From Patescibacteria group bacterium (GTDB lineage Bacteria; Patescibacteriota; JACPGU01), in contig JAKLDG010000001.1 in NCBI GenBank assembly GCA_022703645.1, forward strand, positions 797,254 to 861,253: a stretch of 64,000 nt of DNA, read 5' to 3'. This document shows, piece by piece, positions 51,189-57,708 of this stretch. Position numbers and translations under genes: made by a program. The notes under the pieces are model-generated. The model made no database searches. It was given only the letters and a program-made list of their open reading frames with translations, and was not told the DNA's origin. The first letter of the stretch is position 1. The number at the start of each line of letters is the position of its first letter.

Positions 51189-51270
51189 ATTTTTGATGTT
51201 TATTATTCTTTTTATTATACATTATTAGTTTAATAAAAAAACAACGAAATTAGTCGTCGTTTATTTAATT

Positions 51271-51466
51271 AATGGGCTTTAATTGAAAATGCGCGAACCT
51301 TTTTCAAATCTAAAAACTGAATTTCTGAATTGCATTTTGGGCGGAGCAATTCTGGGTGGGGGGCAGAATGCTCCGCCCAAAAACCCCGAATCCGAATTTT
51401 CCGCTCAATTTTCCGCCGCCGCTTCTTGCCGCAATTTAGGAAATTGCGGCTATTTTGAAATTTTGA
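51271..51466 (+). repeat. Inverted repeat A (left copy, ~196 bp) with GC-rich long hairpin plus terminator-like hairpin
   Basis: The reverse complement recurs at 54374..54569: ~150 nt identical apart from 1 mismatch. A 15-bp stem gggcggagcaattctg/cagaatgctccgccc has one bulge. The second hairpin ccgcaatttaggaaattgcgg is followed by a T-rich tail. Confidence 0.85.
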
Positions 51467-51473
51467 TTTTTAC

Positions 51474-52001
51474 CTATGTATTTTTTAAGACTTTCCCAAA
51501 AATATATGTATGTGTTACGGGTGGCTTTAAAAGTGTCCCCACAAATGGTTTTTTATTTAATTCTTTTATATTTAAAATTTTATAGTTATTAGCTTTATAA
51601 AATTTAATTGCCCAATCAGCCTTTTTCTGAGCTTCTAGCGCGATTGCATCTATTCCTAATCGTTTTGCTCTTTTTTCTATTTCAGAAAGTAACCCGCTTC
51701 CAACTCCTATTTTTTGATATTTTGGCAACACTTGAATCATACTTATCCAAAGAATACCATTCTCTTTAAGATAATATCTCATGGTGCCAACTATTTTATT
51801 ATTAATCGTAGCTATTAGAAATTTTCTCGTTTTTGCTGATTCTGCAAGATCTTTTTCTGATGCCTTTCCAACACAAAGCATCGTACATTCACTGGGTGTA
51901 AAAACGGACATGTATTGTTTGGCTTCTGAATTTTCTACTCTCGCAAATTCTTTATATTCAGATCCTTTTGGTTTTCTAAATTTTATTTTAATCATTTTCA
52001 T
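51474..52001 (-). CDS. GNAT-family N-acetyltransferase
   Basis: Start at MKMIKIKF (rc of 51999-52001). Acetyl-CoA motif ...LPKYQKIGVGSGLLSEIEKRAKRLGIDAIALEA. The upstream palindrome atttagccggctaaa (52091-52105) shares the half-site TTTAGCC with the PD40-gene operators. Confidence 0.7.
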   Translation of the reverse strand: MKMIKIKFRKPKGSEYKEFARVENSEAKQYMSVFTPSECTMLCVGKASEKDLAESAKTRKFLIATINNKIVGTMRYYLKENGILWISMIQVLPKYQKIGVGSGLLSEIEKRAKRLGIDAIALEAQKKADWAIKFYKANNYKILNIKELNKKPFVGTLLKPPVTHTYIFGKVLKNT

Positions 52002-52146
52002 TTTTATCCATTTTAAATATATCAGAACGACAGGAAAAAGTAAATAATTTAGGAAAATAAAAGTGATTTTTCTCTGTGGAAAAGTCATTTATTTAGCCGG
52101 CTAAACCCTAATATTGCACTCAAAATTTTGGCTTAATAAACGAATA

Positions 52147-52175
52147 TTGACTTTGCCGGCAAACTGTGCTATTAT
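52147..52175 (+). promoter_or_regulatory. Consensus sigma70 promoter TTGACT-17-TATTAT
   Basis: -35 at 52147-52152 and -10 at 52170-52175 with an exact 17-bp spacer. Confidence 0.6.
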
Positions 52176-52181
52176 GTATTT

Positions 52182-52262
52182 AGCATTCGTGAGGGCTTTG
52201 GCTCTCTCGCGGTCAAATGTTAAACTGCAGACGAGTGCTACCAGATTCTTTCTGGTTTTTTT
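52182..52262 (+). ncRNA. Candidate small RNA (~80 nt) defined by the consensus promoter and an intrinsic terminator; no protein-coding capacity
   Basis: Downstream of the TTGACT/TATTAT promoter. 7-bp closing stem gcattcg...cgagtgc (one G-U pair); terminator accagattctttctggt + TTTTTTT at 52240-52262. The 3' end abuts the stop of the convergent 52261..52755 gene. Confidence 0.4.
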
Positions 52263-52755
52263 ATTCTTCAAAATCAGTAGAGCTTAGTTTTCTTTTCTTG
52301 TTTCCGTTGGCATCAACAAACTCTATCCATGACGGGTACATGCTATAAAAGAATTTAACTCCGCCTTCAATTTCTTTTACAACCACTTTGATTCTCACTT
52401 CTTTTATAATAGCTACAAAAACATAATACCGAACCAACTTTGCTCTTTTCTCCCAGCGAGAATTTACTTTCTGACGAACTAACATATTTCTCTCGTCGTA
52501 TTCTTGTAGGGTGTGTGACTTCGTAATAATTTCAGGAACTAAATGTAATAGTCTCAATCGATTGTATTGTTCCACTTCGGATCTACCACGATTCCAAGAT
52601 TTGAAAAGCAGGTGTTCAAAACCTTCATTATTAAAATGCACAAAATCATCTAAATAAGGGCATTTAATTTTGCCAATGTTTTTGTACATTTCTTCGGCAT
52701 TTTCTCGTACCGTTTTGAACTTTTTCTCATCAAATTTTGGATTTTTGTTTTCCAT
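52261..52755 (-). CDS. Hypothetical protein (~164 aa) in IR-flanked cargo
   Basis: Start assumed at MENKNPKF (rc of 52753-52755); no motif recognised. Confidence 0.4.
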   Translation of the reverse strand: MENKNPKFDEKKFKTVRENAEEMYKNIGKIKCPYLDDFVHFNNEGFEHLLFKSWNRGRSEVEQYNRLRLLHLVPEIITKSHTLQEYDERNMLVRQKVNSRWEKRAKLVRYYVFVAIIKEVRIKVVVKEIEGGVKFFYSMYPSWIEFVDANGNKKRKLSSTDFEE

Positions 52756-52848
52756 GATTTTATTATAACATAAAAGTTGGCATGAGAATATCATTGTATT
52801 TTGCTCTGTTTTTGCATAATATGTAACTAATAAATAAACCAAAATTTT

Positions 52849-53895
52849 ATGACAGAAAAATTTGATCCAAGTAAACCAGAGTATAAGAAAGTCGAGGATT
52901 TACCAGAAGATCAACAACCACGATTTGAAAATGTTGAGGGCGGTGGTTTTGTAAATAAAGCCGCTCTTGAATTGTCCAAGGAAGATGCTCAAGAAAAAGC
53001 AACGAAAATTAATGAATGGGTAAACAGTAAAAGGAAAGGTAAATACAGTGAGCTTGATAATCCTGAATCTTCCATGGTATTTGAAAACAAGATAGAGACT
53101 TATGATATTCTTAAGCAAAGATTAGAAAAATTCGATGACATTACTGAAAGAGTTGAAAATTTAATATTGGAGGGGGGTGATTTTGATGTTTTGAGACCCG
53201 GATTTTGGAAGGATATGGTAAGAGCAGAAATGGAATTAGATCCGGCGAGAGGAGGTCTTTCTTGGAAAATAGCCATAGACATAGGCATAAGAGACTCTCA
53301 TATGTTTTTCTCTAGGATTATAGCACTTGATATATTCCATTCTTTGAAAAAAAAGGGATTACTTGACGATAATGATAAGAAACTGTTTTTAAAATCTATG
53401 CCAGTATTTGAGTTAGATAGCATATATACTAGGGGTCGTTCATTGTCACCCACAGCCCTTCTTGGCTACGAAAATGAGCTACTAGATTCTTTAGAAAAAT
53501 TATCACAGCGCGAGAATAGGGATGAAATAAATAAGGAGATTAATGAACGATCGCGCATTCATAGATCGATCTTTGACCTTCATAGATCATGTAATCGCCA
53601 TTTCTTTGAAGACTCTGGGTTCAGTGATATGGATGAATTTATTAAGGATGGAATGGGCGAAAAACAATTCAGGACCTATAATTCATTTAGATCGGGCATA
53701 GACAAGTCGCTTATAGAATATGAGGAACAAAATGAGTTTAAATATAGATCTGGACTCGCGGGCTGGGACGATTCTTATCCAAGAAACGCATTTACTCGTG
53801 GTATGGGCGATATAGATGTTTTTATTGATTTGGCAAAAGATGCTAAAAATAAAACTGAAAATGAAATAGAGCAAGATAAGAAAAAATCAAATTAG
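52849..53895 (+). CDS. Hypothetical protein (348 aa) in IR-flanked cargo
   Basis: Divergent from the 52261..52755 gene; acidic and charged; no motif recognised; hairpin terminator at ~53912-53935. Confidence 0.45.
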   Translation: MTEKFDPSKPEYKKVEDLPEDQQPRFENVEGGGFVNKAALELSKEDAQEKATKINEWVNSKRKGKYSELDNPESSMVFENKIETYDILKQRLEKFDDITERVENLILEGGDFDVLRPGFWKDMVRAEMELDPARGGLSWKIAIDIGIRDSHMFFSRIIALDIFHSLKKKGLLDDNDKKLFLKSMPVFELDSIYTRGRSLSPTALLGYENELLDSLEKLSQRENRDEINKEINERSRIHRSIFDLHRSCNRHFFEDSGFSDMDEFIKDGMGEKQFRTYNSFRSGIDKSLIEYEEQNEFKYRSGLAGWDDSYPRNAFTRGMGDIDVFIDLAKDAKNKTENEIEQDKKKSN

Positions 53896-54048
53896 CCAAT
53901 TGATAATTATAAAAGAGCGTCCAGCAGGGCGCTCTTTTCTTTCCCCTTAAATAGTCCTTCATCTCGCAGCTCCGCTGCGCCCCTCTAAATATAAAAACCT
54001 TGAATTTATATTCCTTAATAAAATTATATTTTTCTTATTATCATTTTT

Positions 54049-54255
54049 CTATTTTAATAGTTGGTCTACTTTTGTTCCGATAGCTTCAGCTAATTTCTCA
54101 ATGGTAGAAAGAGTGAGATTTCTCTTGCCATTTTCAATTCCACTAATAAAAGAACGATGAACTTTTAGTTTTCTCGCAATCGTTCCTTGTGATAATTTCT
54201 TTTTTGTTCTTATTTTTTTTAGATTTTTTCCTAATTGTGATGCTATTTTTGACAT
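54049..54255 (-). CDS. XRE-family helix-turn-helix transcriptional regulator (68 aa)
   Basis: LKKIRTKKKLSQGTIARKLKVHRSFISGIENGKRNLTLSTIEKLAEAIG is a canonical Cro/C1 HTH. Its promoter region has direct repeats ATAATGCAACA x2 (54270-54305, minus-strand reading). Confidence 0.85.
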   Translation of the reverse strand: MSKIASQLGKNLKKIRTKKKLSQGTIARKLKVHRSFISGIENGKRNLTLSTIEKLAEAIGTKVDQLLK

Positions 54256-54373
54256 ATAATTATTATCATTATAAATGTTGTTGCATTATTAGACAATGTT
54301 GCATTATAATGATACATGGATATTTGGGAGTCCTCATCATGCGCGCACGGGAGGGTGGGGCAAGCATGAAAAA

Positions 54374-54569
54374 ATCAAATTTCAAAATAGCGAGCCAATG
54401 GGATTGGCTCGCAAGAAGTGGCGGCGGAAAATTGAGCGGAAAATTCGGATTCGGGGTTTTTGGGCGGAGCATTCTGCCCCCCACCCAGAATTGCTCCGCC
54501 CAAAATGCAATTCAGAAATTCAGTTTTTAGATTTGAAAAAGGTTCGCGCATTTTCAATTAAAGCCCATT
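54374..54569 (-). repeat. Inverted repeat A' (right copy), reverse complement of 51271..51466
   Basis: ~150 nt identical to A. The terminal hairpin has a different sequence but keeps the fold (cgagccaatcccattggctcg versus ccgcaatttaggaaattgcgg). This is compensatory change conserving structure. Confidence 0.85.
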
Positions 54570-54714
54570 GAATTGGAGAGAGCGAAAAATTTGCGGGAAT
54601 TTTGACTCCTCGCTCGCCCCGAAGGCGGGCGGGGCGAGCGAGAATTGAAGCTGTAAAATCATAAGGTTCCAAGAAATTCCAAATGATGTTTTTATTTGAA
54701 ATCAGGCGGTTCGT
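54567..54714 (+). repeat. Inverted repeat B (left copy, 148 bp) abutting A', with GC-rich palindrome ctcgctcgcccc...ggggcgagcgag
   Basis: The reverse complement recurs at 56182..56328 with apparently perfect identity. It contains TGTAAAAT, an extended -10-like element oriented toward the recombinase gene. Confidence 0.85.
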
Positions 54715-54782
54715 GATAGCGGAGCTATCGTGAGCATTAGCTCACTCCAATTTTTTCCACAAGCGAAATAAATATAATCAAA

Positions 54783-56330
54783 ATGACCATGGACAAACAA
54801 AAACAACTACCACCCGATCAATGGTATCTCTACATTAGAAAAAGCACCGATGAAGAAGATCGTCAGGTTCTTTCTCTTGAAGCTCAAATGACCGAATTAA
54901 AAGAATTTGCCCAAAGGGAAAATGTAGAGATAACTGAAACATTTGTAGAAAAAAGAACCGCAAAAATACCCGGTCGCCCTGTTTTCAATGAAATGCTCTC
55001 TAAGCTGGAGAATAGCAATGGAAGAATTGGAATTTTAAGCTGGGCTCCCGACAGATTATCAAGAAATTCTGTCGATGGCGGAAAAATAATCTATCTTTTG
55101 GATATGGGTAGAATTGCCAGCTTAAAATTCCCTACCTTTGCTTTTGAAAATAATCCTTCGGGCAAATTCTTTTTGTCCATTTCTCTGTCTAACGCAAAAT
55201 ACTATGTAGATAATCTCGCGGAAAATGTAAGACGAGGCAATAGAGCAAAACTGCGTCGAGGCGAATGGCCAGGGCAAAAACCTTTTGGCTATATTTATGA
55301 CCACCGACTTAGAAACATTGTTCCCGACAAAAAGAAAGCGGAAAAAATCAAAATTATTTTTGAAGAATTTGCCACAGGCAAATACACTTACGAAACTATC
55401 TCTGATCGCATGATAGAATTTGGGATTAAAAGCAAGAGCGGGAAAAGAAAATCCAATCATGCGACAAACTATCTTTTAACTAATGCTCTCTACTGCGGAA
55501 TAATGAATTGGGATGGCGAGGCATACGAGGGAAAATACCAGCCGCTCATCTCAAAGCAATTGTTTTCAAAGGTTCAGGAAGTTCTACAAAACAAGAGCAG
55601 ACCAAGGCGAGGAGTCAGGGGCAACCACAATTTTCCTTTCTGCGGGCTTTTCAGGTGCTCTTGTGGCTCAATGTATACCGCTCAATGGGCTCGTGGCCAT
55701 GGCGGGCTTTACAGATACTACCGATGCACCAGAAAGCACGGAAAATGCTCCGAGCCGTATATCCAAGAAAAAGATCTGCAAAATAGAATCATAGAAAAGA
55801 TTAAAACAATTGCTTTGCCTGACGATTGGGCCGAGCCGATGTTAAATTACTTAGAACAAGAAAAAAAGAAAGAAGCCCAATCATCAAACGCTTTTGTCCA
55901 AGAGATCAACAAAAAACTTATTTCTACTCAAGATAAAATGGACAAACTTTTAGAACTTTATCTTGATAACATGCTTGACGAGGAAACTTACAAAATAAAA
56001 AAAGAAAGTCTCGTCAATCAAAAAATCGCCCTTAAGGACGAAAAACAAATTCTTGGGCAAAAGCGGATGAGCGGCTGGATCGAACCTACGATAGATTATA
56101 TTAAAACACTTGAGAAAGCCAAAAATATCAGCCCAGCGGTATCTCTCCCCGAGATTTCGCAATTTGTGGAAAAAATTGGAACGAACCGCCTGATTTCAAA
56201 TAAAAACATCATTTGGAATTTCTTGGAACCTTATGATTTTACAGCTTCAATTCTCGCTCGCCCCGCCCGCCTTCGGGGCGAGCGAGGAGTCAAAATTCCC
56301 GCAAATTTTTCGCTCTCTCCAATTCAATAA
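54783..56330 (+). CDS. Large serine recombinase (resolvase/invertase N-terminal catalytic domain, recombinase domain, zinc ribbon, coiled coil)
   Basis: N-terminus YLYIRKSTDEEDRQVLSLEAQ...RLSRNSVDGGKIIYLL (catalytic Ser region), Cys-rich CGLFRCSCG...YRCTRK, then coiled coil. The last 49 codons lie inside inverted repeat B'. Confidence 0.8.
   Translation: MTMDKQKQLPPDQWYLYIRKSTDEEDRQVLSLEAQMTELKEFAQRENVEITETFVEKRTAKIPGRPVFNEMLSKLENSNGRIGILSWAPDRLSRNSVDGGKIIYLLDMGRIASLKFPTFAFENNPSGKFFLSISLSNAKYYVDNLAENVRRGNRAKLRRGEWPGQKPFGYIYDHRLRNIVPDKKKAEKIKIIFEEFATGKYTYETISDRMIEFGIKSKSGKRKSNHATNYLLTNALYCGIMNWDGEAYEGKYQPLISKQLFSKVQEVLQNKSRPRRGVRGNHNFPFCGLFRCSCGSMYTAQWARGHGGLYRYYRCTRKHGKCSEPYIQEKDLQNRIIEKIKTIALPDDWAEPMLNYLEQEKKKEAQSSNAFVQEINKKLISTQDKMDKLLELYLDNMLDEETYKIKKESLVNQKIALKDEKQILGQKRMSGWIEPTIDYIKTLEKAKNISPAVSLPEISQFVEKIGTNRLISNKNIIWNFLEPYDFTASILARPARLRGERGVKIPANFSLSPIQ
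56182..56328 (-). repeat. Inverted repeat B' (right copy), reverse complement of 54567..54714; overlaps the 3' end of the large serine recombinase ORF
   Basis: A 147-bp apparently perfect match to rc(B); it encodes the recombinase C-terminal NRLISNKNIIWNFLEPYDFTASILARPARLRGERGVKIPANFSLSPIQ. Confidence 0.85.
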
Positions 56331-56550
56331 ATCCGATTGGATTGCTTACATTTACATTCCTGTGTTTGGCAGGATTGAGAAAATCAGGGTTGGTCGTATA
56401 TGGCGAACCAAAGTAGTCAACACAACACAGGAAAGATTAGATAACTATTATAAAAACTGCGAATATGTGATAACCCAATAACTACTGGGTTATTTTTAGT
56501 ATATCTGATTGCATTTTACCATACAATTAATTTTTTAGAAAGGAGTAAAA

Positions 56551-57120
56551 ATGAAAAAAGTAGCAATTTATGTTCGTTGCAGTACCGACAAGGGACAGGA
56601 TTTAGACACTCAAATACTGCCACTGAAAGAGTATGTCGCCAATCGTGGTTGGGAAGTCTACAAAATATATCAAGACTATGCTGAAAGCGGTTCAAAACAG
56701 GACAGAAAAGCCTTAAAAGAGCTAATGGATGATGCAAGACGACGCAAATTCCATGTTTGTGCCGTGGCACGCTGGGATAGATTTTCAAGGTCAACTCGGC
56801 AATTACTAGAATCATTGGAAACATTTAGAGCGGTTGGCGTAGATTTTGTCAGTCTGCATAATGCAACCGATACAACTACTCCCGAAGGAAAAATGTTTTT
56901 TACAATAATAGCTGGGTTTGCCGAATATGAAAGAGAACTGATAAGGAGTAGGGTTCTTGATGGTTTGAATAAGGCCAGAGCAAAAGGTAAAACTCTCGGC
57001 CGTCCAAAAGTTCCTATAGATATTCAAAAATTATTTCAACTAAAATCAGAAGGATTATCAATCCGAAAAATAGCAGAGGAATTGAAGGTTCCGAAATCAA
57101 CGGTGCAGAATTATATATGA
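56551..57120 (+). CDS. Small serine recombinase (Hin/Gin-like DNA invertase or resolvase) with C-terminal HTH
   Basis: 189 aa. VAIYVRCSTDKGQDLDTQ (catalytic Ser), ...VARWDRFSRS..., C-terminal LSIRKIAEELKVPKSTVQNYI HTH. Confidence 0.85.
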   Translation: MKKVAIYVRCSTDKGQDLDTQILPLKEYVANRGWEVYKIYQDYAESGSKQDRKALKELMDDARRRKFHVCAVARWDRFSRSTRQLLESLETFRAVGVDFVSLHNATDTTTPEGKMFFTIIAGFAEYERELIRSRVLDGLNKARAKGKTLGRPKVPIDIQKLFQLKSEGLSIRKIAEELKVPKSTVQNYI

Positions 57121-57150
57121 GCATAAAATGGCTTAAAATACATATTTTTC

Positions 57151-57179
57151 TTGACAATCATAGCGTTTTGTGGTATACT
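57151..57179 (+). promoter_or_regulatory. Perfect-spacing consensus sigma70 promoter TTGACA-17-TATACT
   Basis: -35 at 57151-57156 and -10 at 57174-57179. Confidence 0.65.
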
Positions 57180-57312
57180 GATTACATCAAAAATATCTTA
57201 TGAATATACCTTAACAATTCTACAAGAACTTGCTCACGAGGTGAGTCTTTATGATAAAATTTCTTTGTTAAAAATCTTGGGCGATATTTCGCCTGTATCC
57301 GAGGAGGATAAA

Positions 57313-57708
57313 ATGCCATACAAAGCAGCGACCACAGTATCAAAAAAGACAATAAGGGGTTCCGTTATCGTTGTAGCCCCGTCGGTAAGCAATATTGCAG
57401 ATAAAGTAGAAATTATTCTGGACAAGTATTACAAGAAAGCGGTTGGATGTGCCAACTATTGCTTTATTCCGCTTCAGATTCAGCAAATAAGTTTTCTGCG
57501 TGGTGGCTTTTATTGCGACATGCCTGCGTGTACGCAGTACAAGGCCGCCGTGATTTCTGCCGAGATAGACCCCTTCGTCCAAACAAACAAAAGGCACTGG
57601 AAGAAGTGGTTTGAAGAATTGATACAGGTAATCGGCGAAGAACTCGGTTGTTCGGAGCTGAAAATCACCTATACCGAGCTGGATGTGAAGGTGCTTCAAC
57701 AAGATTAA
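57313..57708 (+). CDS. Hypothetical Cys-containing small protein (131 aa) behind a strong promoter and SD
   Basis: Start moved to MPYKAATT..., preceded by gaggaggataaaATG. The track's longer ORF starts inside the promoter. No motif recognised. Confidence 0.45.
   Translation: MPYKAATTVSKKTIRGSVIVVAPSVSNIADKVEIILDKYYKKAVGCANYCFIPLQIQQISFLRGGFYCDMPACTQYKAAVISAEIDPFVQTNKRHWKKWFEELIQVIGEELGCSELKITYTELDVKVLQQD

What the first reader, a model, noticed from the sequence alone, without database searches (positions are those of the whole stretch)
54567..56330. Large serine recombinase whose last 49 codons are encoded by inverted repeat B', so the ORF stays intact after inversion of the segment
B' (56182-56328) is the exact reverse complement of B (54567-54714), and the recombinase stop codon (56328-56330) sits at the outer edge of B'. 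If the 54715-56181 segment inverts by recombination within B/B', the gene body flips strand but reads into the identical repeat sequence on the other side, regenerating the same C-terminus. This is an inference from the geometry. The repeat also carries a GC-rich palindrome (ctcgctcgcccc...ggggcgagcgag) that translates to ARPARLRGERG, and an extended -10-like TGTAAAAT facing the gene. A recombinase embedded in, and partly encoded by, its own flanking inverted repeats is unusual. Classical invertases sit outside the invertible segment.
Basis: partly seen in the sequence, partly recalled or inferred. Interest (0 to 1): 0.7.

Follow-up and report, generated by a model that had tools for sequence, protein, structure and literature searches.

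The report
tRNA-targeting serine-integrase island, duplicated attP
The inverted repeat around this recombinase gene is real, but rather than a stand-alone flip-switch it is two copies of the attachment-site arm of a small mobile island, one of a large undescribed family, mostly in Patescibacteria, that normally inserts at the 3' ends of tRNA genes.

Summary
In detail: 54567-54714 and 56181-56328 are a perfect 148-nt inverted repeat, and the right arm encodes codons 467-515 of a 515-aa large serine recombinase (LSR). The same layout recurs in about 70 of 84 homologous loci. There the right arm ends 3-7 nt inside the 3' end of an antisense tRNA gene of any isotype. The left arm is always preceded by a conserved leader and a GGTTCG motif placed 5 nt further out than the tRNA T-loop GGTTCG, which is the known attP versus attB half-site offset of serine integrases. 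In 15 loci, including the window (51271-51429), a second inverted leader copy marks the far end of a 3-7 kb island. Three sites share a 3-10 nt core: tRNA-core-arm (attL type), leader-core-host trailer (attR type) and leader-core-arm (intact internal attP type). The LSR frame stays open through the arm in 61 of 64 loci and usually finds its stop codon beyond the crossover. The tail is constrained mainly as DNA (dS 3-4 times lower than the core). Flipped copies exist but are rare or ambiguous. The window's island (51271-56328) lies at a non-tRNA secondary site.

The parts
51239..51262 (-). Host flank Z just outside the island: a terminator-like hairpin. This is the B'-side of the predicted attB.
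   Evidence: terminator-like site; site0 = m-O-Z. The equivalent Z flanks in L019 and L026 are terminator hairpins, and in L061 Z is the next tRNA gene.
51271..51429 (-). Distal inverted copy (A) of the leader, GGTTCGCGC motif (51299-51291) and core (51271-51273). This is the P-type arm of the attR-type junction and the left end of the island.
   Evidence: I1: 159 nt, 99% complementary to 54411-54569. Searches give the sequence. Searches show the same distal copy in 14 other loci.
51428..51450 (+). Leader hairpin 1 of copy A, terminator-like and facing into the cargo.
   Evidence: The counterpart in copy A' (54412-54390, minus strand) has a different stem but the same T-rich tail.
51474..54255 (.). 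Cargo segment: GNAT acetyltransferase (51474-52088, -), LPD3-domain protein (52261-52842, -), 348-aa protein with no family hit (52849-53895, +) and an XRE/HTH_3 regulator (54049-54255, -) divergent from the recombinase.
   Evidence: XRE homologs lie in the same position and strand in at least 11 of 34 loci and, by Pfam, in L001 and L002.
54340..54566 (+). Proximal leader copy (A') with two GC-rich hairpins (54390-54412; 54458-54505) and the P-type half-site motif GGTTCGCGC (54541-54549), 17-18 nt before the arm (the metric gives 20 from GTTCG).
   Evidence: near-invariant blocks across W, L002, L014 and L001, with compensatory changes in hairpin 2. Searches give the motif and spacing. I18 shows hairpin 2.
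54567..54569 (+). Core O (ATT) shared by all three sites. The other copies are at 56326-56328 and 51271-51273. This is the presumed crossover region.
   Evidence: three-way comparison of the junctions.
54567..54714 (+). Repeat arm B (IR-L): the P' arm of the intact internal attP-type site, with a 13-bp GC-rich hairpin (54609-54642).
54715..54745 (+). 31-nt insert present only on the left, forming two mini-hairpins (gatagc..gctatc and gtgagc..gctcac). It is conserved in L001 and L002, with loop changes only.
54746..54762 (+). 17-nt extension of the inverted repeat (partner at 56164-56180).
   Evidence: I4.
54783..56330 (+). Large serine recombinase (integrase) gene, 515 aa. Its stop codon T|AA is formed across the island/host junction.
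   Evidence: invariant R19, S21; closest solved structure: A118 integrase, E=1.6e-8.
56181..56328 (+). Repeat arm B' (IR-R): the P' arm of the attL-type junction. It encodes codons 467-515.
56329..56350 (+). Host flank F: a B-type half-site of a non-tRNA secondary attB. AATCC sits in the same register as the T-arm AATCC of the tRNA-Lys target of the closest relative, L002.
   Evidence: Searches give the sequences. No tRNA is present in the window. The register comparison is my own reading of those sequences.

Best explanation
The repeat belongs to a 5.06-kb integrative island (window 51271-56328) of a large, previously undescribed family that uses a large serine recombinase (LSR) to insert at the extreme 3' end of tRNA genes. 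The family is mainly Patescibacterial. SHOWN by comparison of 84 loci: (1) the LSR gene lies at one end of the island and its reading frame runs through the element-side arm (X) of the attachment site and usually across the crossover point; (2) the host-side half-site is the tRNA T-loop GGTTCGAnTCC followed by the acceptor 3' strand; (3) the island carries, directly upstream of the LSR gene, an inverted second copy of the whole attachment region (leader, GGTTCG motif 5 nt further out, core, arm); (4) the far end of the island is another inverted leader+motif+core abutting the native tRNA trailer. INFERRED: the free circular form has two attP regions in inverted orientation, each about 300-400 bp, separating an LSR segment from a cargo segment. 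The GGTTCG motif is read by the zinc-ribbon domain at attB-type spacing on the tRNA and attP-type spacing on the leader. The first nucleotides of the core, which match acceptor positions of the particular tRNA, contain the crossover dinucleotide and so set which tRNA is used. The near-identity of the arms (median 99.3%) despite rapid divergence between loci is kept by gene conversion, and the variable inner limit of the repeat (71-307 nt) is a by-product of that. The internal attP-type copy most likely serves as an operator or promoter region for the LSR (auto-regulation together with the divergent XRE) and as an alternative integration site, which would explain the rare flipped loci. The window's copy sits at a non-tRNA secondary site.
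For: Repeats flank the LSR gene in about 70 of 84 loci, with median arm identity 99.3% and median length 131 nt. The arm end overlaps the 3' end of an antisense tRNA in 49 loci covering at least 15 isotypes. GTTCG lies 13 nt from the arm on the tRNA side (37 of 48) and 18-19 nt on the leader side. The consensus GGTTC sits at -19..-15 versus -24..-20, an exact 5-nt shift, matching the published attB/attP DBD2 offset (PMC11722253). In 15 loci, three sites share a 3-10 nt core. The Z flanks are terminator hairpins or the next tRNA: in L061 a tRNA-Arg lies 9 nt from the distal site, so removing the island rejoins a tandem tRNA pair. Leader homology between non-syntenic loci stops 130-240 nt from the arm, and right-flank homology is only the tRNA. 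The frame is stop-free through the arm in 61 of 64 loci versus 24 and 16 for the other frames, and the stop lies beyond the arm in 59 of 64. Tail dS is 0.28-0.40 versus core 0.96-1.30 at equal dN. Several genomes hold two members at different tRNAs (CP060229.1, CAIPBY01, CAZNQQ01). Cargo is typical island content: methyltransferases, Fic, Panacea antitoxin, AbiEii, GNAT, XRE.
Against: No excised circle junction and no empty site were found for the window's island, so mobility is inferred from comparison, not observed. The window copy is not next to a tRNA. The arm X lacks a mirrored GGTTCG at P-type spacing and instead has C.ACAAAA and ACTT at +13..+16, so the attP is asymmetric and the exact crossover dinucleotide is not determined. 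Only 14 of the 24 loci with at least 3.5 kb of left flank show the distal leader copy; the rest may have longer cargo or a different structure. The proposed role of the internal attP copy is speculation. Canonical LSR rules give no reaction between attP- and attL-type sites, so the origin of flipped loci is unresolved. No candidate directionality factor was identified.
Confidence: 0.8

Rival explanations
1. Programmed inversion switch. The LSR, or homologous recombination, flips the 54715-56180 segment between the two arms. The repeat-encoded tail exists so that the ORF survives the flip, and the two orientations differ in expression, for example leader promoter versus read-through from the neighbouring tRNA.
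For: The geometry holds. Flipped configurations exist: L078 has tRNA-Glu(+) abutting the arm with the LSR co-directional, L032 is similar, and L087 is inverted at 100% identity in the window's lineage. Perfect 148-nt arms would support RecA-dependent inversion (general knowledge).
Against: All contigs (about 30) that span both arms and the leader have the same orientation. Where an XRE gene was detected it is proximal to the LSR. L087 comes from a k=141 assembly crossing a 148-nt repeat, so its orientation is not informative. The flipped tRNA-side loci are equally explained by integration through the other attP copy. The arms carry tRNA-specific core nucleotides and sit in a three-site integration pattern that a simple switch does not explain. 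attP x attL is not a permitted LSR reaction (abstracts and text).
Confidence: 0.12
2. Autonomous 1.76-kb serine-recombinase transposon whose terminal inverted repeats are B and B'. It would be nested by chance, or by target preference, between an island end and a tRNA.
For: The unit is compact (arm, LSR, arm). There are many 1.6-2 kb contigs carrying only the LSR. Several copies occur per genome. Some LSRs (TnpX, TndX) are transposases (own knowledge).
Against: In nearly all loci with left flank (exceptions such as L020), the left arm is preceded by the conserved leader+motif. No solo cassette was seen and there is no target-site duplication. The short contigs are what an assembler produces at a repeat longer than k. 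The core is shared with the distal leader copy, which ties the cassette and the cargo into one unit.
Confidence: 0.06
3. Assembly artefact: a chimeric fold-back created by the assembler.
For: Inverted repeats can arise from mis-joins, and contigs often break at this repeat.
Against: The arrangement is identical in three independent assemblies from NCBI, JGI and ENA. Equivalent repeats with different sequences occur in about 70 loci from many projects, including an isolate genome (L072, Chitinophagaceae PMP191F).
Confidence: 0.01

Closest known systems
Phage/ICE large serine integrases (A118/LI, SPbeta, Bxb1, phiC31)
   Same: The domain set is the same: Resolvase + Recombinase + zinc ribbon, with best solved-structure match 4KIS, A118 integrase. 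attL/attR-type junctions share a short core. The outer half-site motif is 5 bp closer to the centre on the host side than on the element side.
   Different: The target is the 3' end of any tRNA gene, read through the universal T-loop. The systematic LSR survey does not mention tRNA targets. attP overlaps the integrase ORF, which has no stop of its own. A second, inverted attP-type region of 300-400 bp is kept inside the element. No directionality factor was recognised.
tRNA-integrating genomic islands and tycheposons (mostly tyrosine integrases)
   Same: These are small cargo islands next to tRNA genes, with a copy of the tRNA 3' end at the far end, defence/TA/metabolic cargo, and several per genome.
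   Different: The enzyme here is a serine recombinase, not a tyrosine recombinase. The shared core is only 3-10 nt rather than tens of nt. The architecture is dominated by nested inverted repeats. Tycheposons contain an LSR only in a small minority, and no such repeat structure is reported for them.
SSV1-type archaeal integrases (attP inside the int gene)
   Same: The attachment site lies within the integrase reading frame, so the protein's sequence depends on the integrated or excised state. This is an analogy; the concept comes from my own knowledge and the review listed, PMC8371274.
   Different: SSV1 Int is a tyrosine recombinase and its gene is split in two on integration. Here only the residues after the core change and the catalytic protein stays whole.
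Hin/Gin-type DNA invertases and the yeast 2-micron Flp/FRT plasmid
   Same: In Hin a recombinase gene lies between inverted recombination sites. In the 2-micron plasmid a circle is divided into two unique segments by long inverted repeats that contain the recombinase target. Both points are from my own knowledge. The predicted circular form of this island has the 2-micron geometry.
   Different: Hin and Gin are about 190-aa enzymes with 26-bp sites and an enhancer. Flp is a tyrosine recombinase. Here the enzyme is a 515-aa LSR, the sites are attP/attL types, and frequent flipping is not seen.

Membership tests
Large serine recombinases / serine integrases | N-terminal resolvase catalytic domain with the Ser nucleophile | tested here: met
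   PF00239, E=4.6e-20, residues 15-162. Y17, R19, K20, S21 and T22 are invariant in 27 homologs.
Large serine recombinases / serine integrases | Recombinase domain (DBD1) followed by the zinc-ribbon domain (DBD2) | tested here: met
   PF07508, E=5.7e-13 (184-270) and PF13408, E=2.2e-9 (285-341). Cys residues 292, 294, 315 and 322 are invariant.
Large serine recombinases / serine integrases | Coiled-coil insert in DBD2 that controls directionality | not tested
   A roughly 100-aa Lys/Glu-rich stretch follows the zinc ribbon, but no structure prediction or coiled-coil analysis was run.
Large serine recombinases / serine integrases | Integrated element bounded by attL and attR that share only a short core with attP/attB | tested here: met
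   Three-way junction comparison in 15 loci gives a core of 3-10 nt; in the window it is ATT.
Large serine recombinases / serine integrases | DBD2 motif about 5 bp closer to the centre in attB than in attP half-sites | tested here: met
   GGTTC sits at -19..-15 (tRNA side) versus -24..-20 (leader side) relative to the core.
Large serine recombinases / serine integrases | Catalysis of attP x attB recombination; excision dependent on a directionality factor | not testable with these tools
   This needs a recombination assay. No circle junction or empty site was found in public contigs.
DNA invertases (Hin/Gin/Cin/Pin) | Small (about 190 aa) serine recombinase with a C-terminal HTH | tested here: not met
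   The protein is 515 aa with Recombinase and Zn-ribbon domains. The neighbouring 189-aa resolvase/invertase-like gene (56551-57120) lies outside the island.
DNA invertases (Hin/Gin/Cin/Pin) | Both orientations of the segment coexist in the population | tested here: inconclusive
   L087 is flipped but from a k=141 assembly crossing a 148-nt repeat. L078 and L032 are flipped relative to the tRNA. All fully spanning contigs are in standard orientation. No reads were available.
Transposons/IS with terminal inverted repeats (including serine transposons Tn4451/Tn5397 and IS607) | The unit bounded by the repeats moves alone and is found with unrelated flanks | tested here: not met
   In nearly all loci with left flank (exceptions such as L020), the left arm is preceded by the conserved leader+GGTTCG motif.
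Transposons/IS with terminal inverted repeats (including serine transposons Tn4451/Tn5397 and IS607) | Target-site duplication flanking the repeats | tested here: not met
   The flanks are ...AAAGCCC|arm and arm|AAATCCG, with no direct repeat. This is a weak criterion, because serine-recombinase elements are not expected to make duplications.
tRNA-integrating genomic islands | Insertion at the 3' end of a tRNA gene, with a copy of the tRNA end at the distal boundary | tested here: met
   Met for the family: 49 loci by the arm/tRNA overlap and 15 loci with the distal core. NOT met for the window's own copy, because there is no tRNA in the 64 kb.

The most novel reading that the evidence does not exclude
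The duplicated, inverted attP is a functional design rather than a by-product. The excised island would be a 2-micron-like circle whose two attP regions allow integration in either orientation. After integration, the retained attP would auto-regulate the integrase or let the island engage a second tRNA site without any excision factor. The enzyme itself would be a generic tRNA-gene integrase that reads the universal T-loop (GGTTCGAnTCC, which is also the eukaryotic B-box). Its choice among tRNAs would be set only by the few core nucleotides, making it a naturally retargetable serine integrase with ready-made sites in every genome.
Probability: 0.3. Interest if true: 0.85.

Novelty: new variant of a known kind. 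Interest (0 to 1): 0.65.

Why it matters
Serine integrases are important genome-engineering tools, and nearly all characterised ones target protein-coding or intergenic sites. This clade targets the universal 3' end of tRNA genes, and specificity appears to reside in a 3-10 nt core. It also shows that Patescibacteria, which are thought to be poor in classical mobile elements, carry many small defence/TA-type islands at their tRNA genes. The repeats explain a recurrent pattern of contig breaks in their assemblies. The kept, inverted second attP and an integrase ORF that borrows its stop codon from across the crossover point are architectural features I could not find described anywhere.

Tried and rejected
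- An exact search for the GC-rich palindrome in genome contigs found nothing.
- ARAGORN found no tRNA in the window, so the window copy is not at a tRNA.
- Rfam at E<=1 over 53500-57500 gave only sub-threshold chance hits (MicX, Flavi SL6), so neither the leader nor the arms match a known RNA family.
- I considered the left motif as a degenerate tRNA T-arm at the RNA level and rejected it, because there is no complementary stem. I also considered it as a plain promoter. The consensus scan does not call one there, and the GGTTCG block lies in what would be the spacer.
- I looked for a mirrored GGTTCG in the arm at P-type spacing and found none.
- A scan of the fetched loci for tRNA directly followed by the inverted motif (an LSR-less or empty arrangement) found none.
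- Metagenome scans for the predicted circle junction and for the predicted empty site each returned 0 hits.
- The viral-contig scan returned only distant members. L092 has arms 4.1 kb apart and is not informative.
- Look-ups of the host flanking genes returned only occupied sites, plus the flipped k141 contig.
- Eight literature searches found no description of this architecture.
Full report
**Observation.** The window holds a perfect 148-nt inverted repeat, 54567-54714 / 56181-56328. A further 17-nt repeat (54746-54762 / 56164-56180) is contiguous on the right and displaced by a 31-nt insert on the left. The ORF 54783..56330 (+) encodes a 515-aa protein with Resolvase, Recombinase and Zn_ribbon_recom domains, so it is a large serine recombinase (LSR). 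Codons 467-515 lie in the right arm, and the stop TAA (56328-56330) straddles the arm end. The GC-rich palindrome occurs exactly twice, with none expected by chance. The same arrangement at 100% identity is present in NCBI GCA_035454225.1 and JGI 3300010429 contigs.

**The layout is a family trait.** The LSR has 2,676 homologs at E<=0.001 among the 8,000 candidates scored. In the protein alignment, many C-termini continue beyond '...NPxW' as 'CARQDSNLRP...' or 'SGREDLNLR..GALP', which is the antisense translation of a tRNA 3' half. Three homolog loci each showed a 149-209 nt, 95-100% inverted repeat around the gene, with the right arm ending 3-7 nt inside an antisense tRNA-Leu or tRNA-Lys.

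- Seventy-one loci in total have arms of at least 70 nt, with median length 131 nt. Median identity is 99.3%, and 60 loci are at 95% or higher.
- In 49 loci the arm end overlaps the 3' end of an ARAGORN-called antisense tRNA. The tRNAs are of many isotypes: Pro, Arg, Lys, Ala, Ser, Leu, Val, Gln, Glu, Gly, Met, Phe, Tyr, His and Ile.
- Hosts are mostly Patescibacteria, with some Omnitrophota- and Bacteroidota-labelled genomes, including the isolate Chitinophagaceae PMP191F.
- Many members sit on 1.6-2 kb contigs or 100-600 nt from a contig end. This is what assemblers produce at a repeat longer than k.

**Junction anatomy.**

- Outside the right arm lies the tRNA T-loop, with GTTCG 13 nt from the arm in 37 of 48 loci.
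- Outside the left arm lies a conserved aaaa-GGTTCG(a/c)GC motif 18-19 nt from the arm.
- In position-specific consensus, GGTTC sits at -19..-15 on the tRNA side and -24..-20 on the left side, an exact 5-nt shift.
- This is the published distinction between attB and attP half-sites of serine integrases: the DBD2/zinc-ribbon motif lies 5 bp (4 bp in SPbeta) closer to the centre in attB (PMC11722253).
- The outermost 3-10 nt of both arms match the last nucleotides of the particular tRNA, for example CGACCA for Pro, GGACAA for Lys and CCGCAA for Ser.
- The arm itself has C.ACAAAA at +1..+8 and ACTT at +13..+16 (A13 in 94%) but no mirrored GGTTCG, so the sites are asymmetric.

**Three sites define an island.**

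- Left-flank homology between non-syntenic loci extends only 130-240 nt beyond the left arm (the 'leader'), and right-flank homology is only the tRNA. The leader is very strongly conserved as DNA and has GC-rich hairpins with compensatory changes.
- In the window, a second inverted copy of the leader, motif and core lies at 51271-51429 (99% over 159 nt), abutting unrelated host sequence.
- The same distal copy exists in 14 other loci, which is 14 of the 24 loci with at least 3.5 kb of left flank, plus L011.
- Aligning the three junctions per locus shows a common core O of 3-10 nt. The three sites are m-O-Z (distal), m-O-X (internal, upstream of the LSR ATG) and tRNA-O-X (LSR 3' end).
- Z is native tRNA trailer: terminator hairpins in L019, L026 and the window. 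In L061 it is a tRNA-Arg gene 9 nt away, so removing the island rejoins a tandem tRNA pair.

This is the signature of attP x attB integration: tRNA-O-X is attL-type, m-O-Z is attR-type and m-O-X is an intact attP-type site. Joining the island ends regenerates X'-O-m', the mirror image of the internal site. The excised circle is therefore predicted to carry two inverted attP regions of about 300-400 bp that separate the LSR segment from the cargo segment.

**The window's island.** The island spans 51271-56328 (5.06 kb) and has core ATT. Its cargo is a GNAT acetyltransferase, an LPD3-domain protein, a 348-aa protein with no family hit, and an XRE regulator divergent from the LSR. It is not at a tRNA. 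The right host flank shares only AATCC in the T-arm register with the tRNA-Lys target of its closest relative, so I read it as a secondary attB. The JGI contig's two ends both fall in leader copy A, which indicates a roughly 866-kb circular chromosome broken at this repeat.

**Protein or DNA constraint on the tail.**

- The LSR frame is stop-free through the whole right arm in 61 of 64 loci, against 24 and 16 for the other two frames.
- In 59 of 64 loci the ORF continues past the arm into the flank, so the stop codon is supplied from across the crossover. In the window it is T|AA. In the circular form the ORF would add WALIENARTFFKSKN.
- Between the window, L002 and L001, the core gene has dS 0.96-1.30, dN 0.15-0.18 and omega about 0.14. 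The 49-codon tail has dS 0.28-0.40, dN 0.14-0.19 and omega about 0.5-0.6.
- The tail is therefore constrained mainly as DNA, with an additional requirement that the frame stay open.
- A GC-rich perfect hairpin 35-45 nt from the arm end recurs in 9 of 10 sampled arms, with unrelated sequences. Arms are 52.6% GC versus 43.5% for the rest of the gene.

**Inversion.** L078 and L032 have the tRNA (+) abutting the left arm with the LSR co-directional, and both contigs end in or before the other arm. L087, from another sample of the window's lineage, has 54715-56180 inverted relative to the same right flank at 100% identity. However, it is a k=141 contig crossing a 148-nt repeat, so its orientation may be arbitrary. 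All contigs (about 30) that span both arms and the leader have the standard orientation. Where an XRE gene was detected, it lies on the LSR-proximal side. Flipping, or integration through the other attP copy, therefore occurs at most rarely. It is not what the architecture is built around.

**Cargo and regulators.** Island cargo includes D12 and N6/N4 DNA methyltransferases, Fic/DOC, DUF3800, a Panacea antitoxin, AbiEii and GNAT. Leader hairpin 1 is terminator-like and faces the cargo in both leader copies, with different stems. This suggests insulation of the cargo from outside transcription.

**Comparison and novelty.** The enzyme meets the sequence and att-site criteria of serine integrases, and its closest solved relative is the A118 integrase. 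Three features differ from described systems:

- generic tRNA 3'-end targeting through the T-loop;
- an attP that overlaps the integrase ORF, which has no stop of its own;
- a kept, inverted second attP region.

The systematic LSR survey does not mention tRNA, inverted repeats or Patescibacteria. Tycheposons are tRNA-associated but nearly all encode tyrosine recombinases. Eight full-text searches found no description of this architecture. I therefore class it as a new variant of a known kind.

**Limits.** Mobility, the circular form, the crossover dinucleotide and the role of the internal attP are inferences. Searches for a circle junction and for an empty site returned nothing, and no reads were available.

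Noticed in passing
window 56551-57120 (+): A 189-aa small serine recombinase (Resolvase + HTH; resolvase/invertase type) lies 220 nt outside the island's right end. The island may therefore have landed inside or beside another mobile element.
   Followed up: partly
L087 10185-10525 (about 0.8 kb beyond the window's right end): A second large serine recombinase (575 aa, Resolvase + Recombinase) lies in the same genome just past the window. I did not check whether it belongs to the same family or has repeats.
   Followed up: no
L043 1832-1905 (-): The target tRNA is called 'tRNA-Stop' with anticodon TTA. Its body is about 90% identical to the tRNA-Lys(ttt) of L021 and L071, so it is a possible ochre-suppressor-like variant or a mutated tRNA-Lys.
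   Followed up: no
window 1-64000: ARAGORN found no tRNA gene in the whole 64-kb window, although the family normally sits at tRNA genes.
   Followed up: yes
L086/L089/L091 (JGI 3300010429 Ga0116241_10000009, 866,256 bp): Both contig ends fall inside leader copy A (window 51271-51429). This suggests a complete circular chromosome of about 866 kb that the assembler opened at this repeat.
   Followed up: partly
window 54370-54400 and L001, L002, L014 (alignment A2): A 30-nt block, AAAAATCAAATTTCAAAATAGCGAGCCAAT, is invariant in four loci whose recombinases are only 75-79% identical. Its function is unknown; it is part of an inward-facing terminator-like hairpin.
   Followed up: partly
window 54715-54745: A 31-nt insert with two mini-hairpins interrupts the left copy of the repeat only. 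It is conserved in L001 and L002 with loop changes only and could be a regulator binding site or a 5'-UTR element.
   Followed up: no
proteins P0067, P0073, P0076-P0078: These homologs of 865-894 aa (38-39% identity over about 92% of the query) are nearly double length. One carries PF07697. They may be fusions or a distinct sub-family.
   Followed up: no
window 53900-54044 (+): There is a sub-threshold Rfam hit to MicX sRNA (31 bits versus gathering score 75, E=3e-4) between the 348-aa gene and the XRE gene. It is probably chance.
   Followed up: no
L061 2682-2754 and 6462-6549: The island splits what would otherwise be a tight tandem of tRNA-Ser(tga) and tRNA-Arg(gcg). This locus would be useful for designing an empty-site PCR.
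   Followed up: yes
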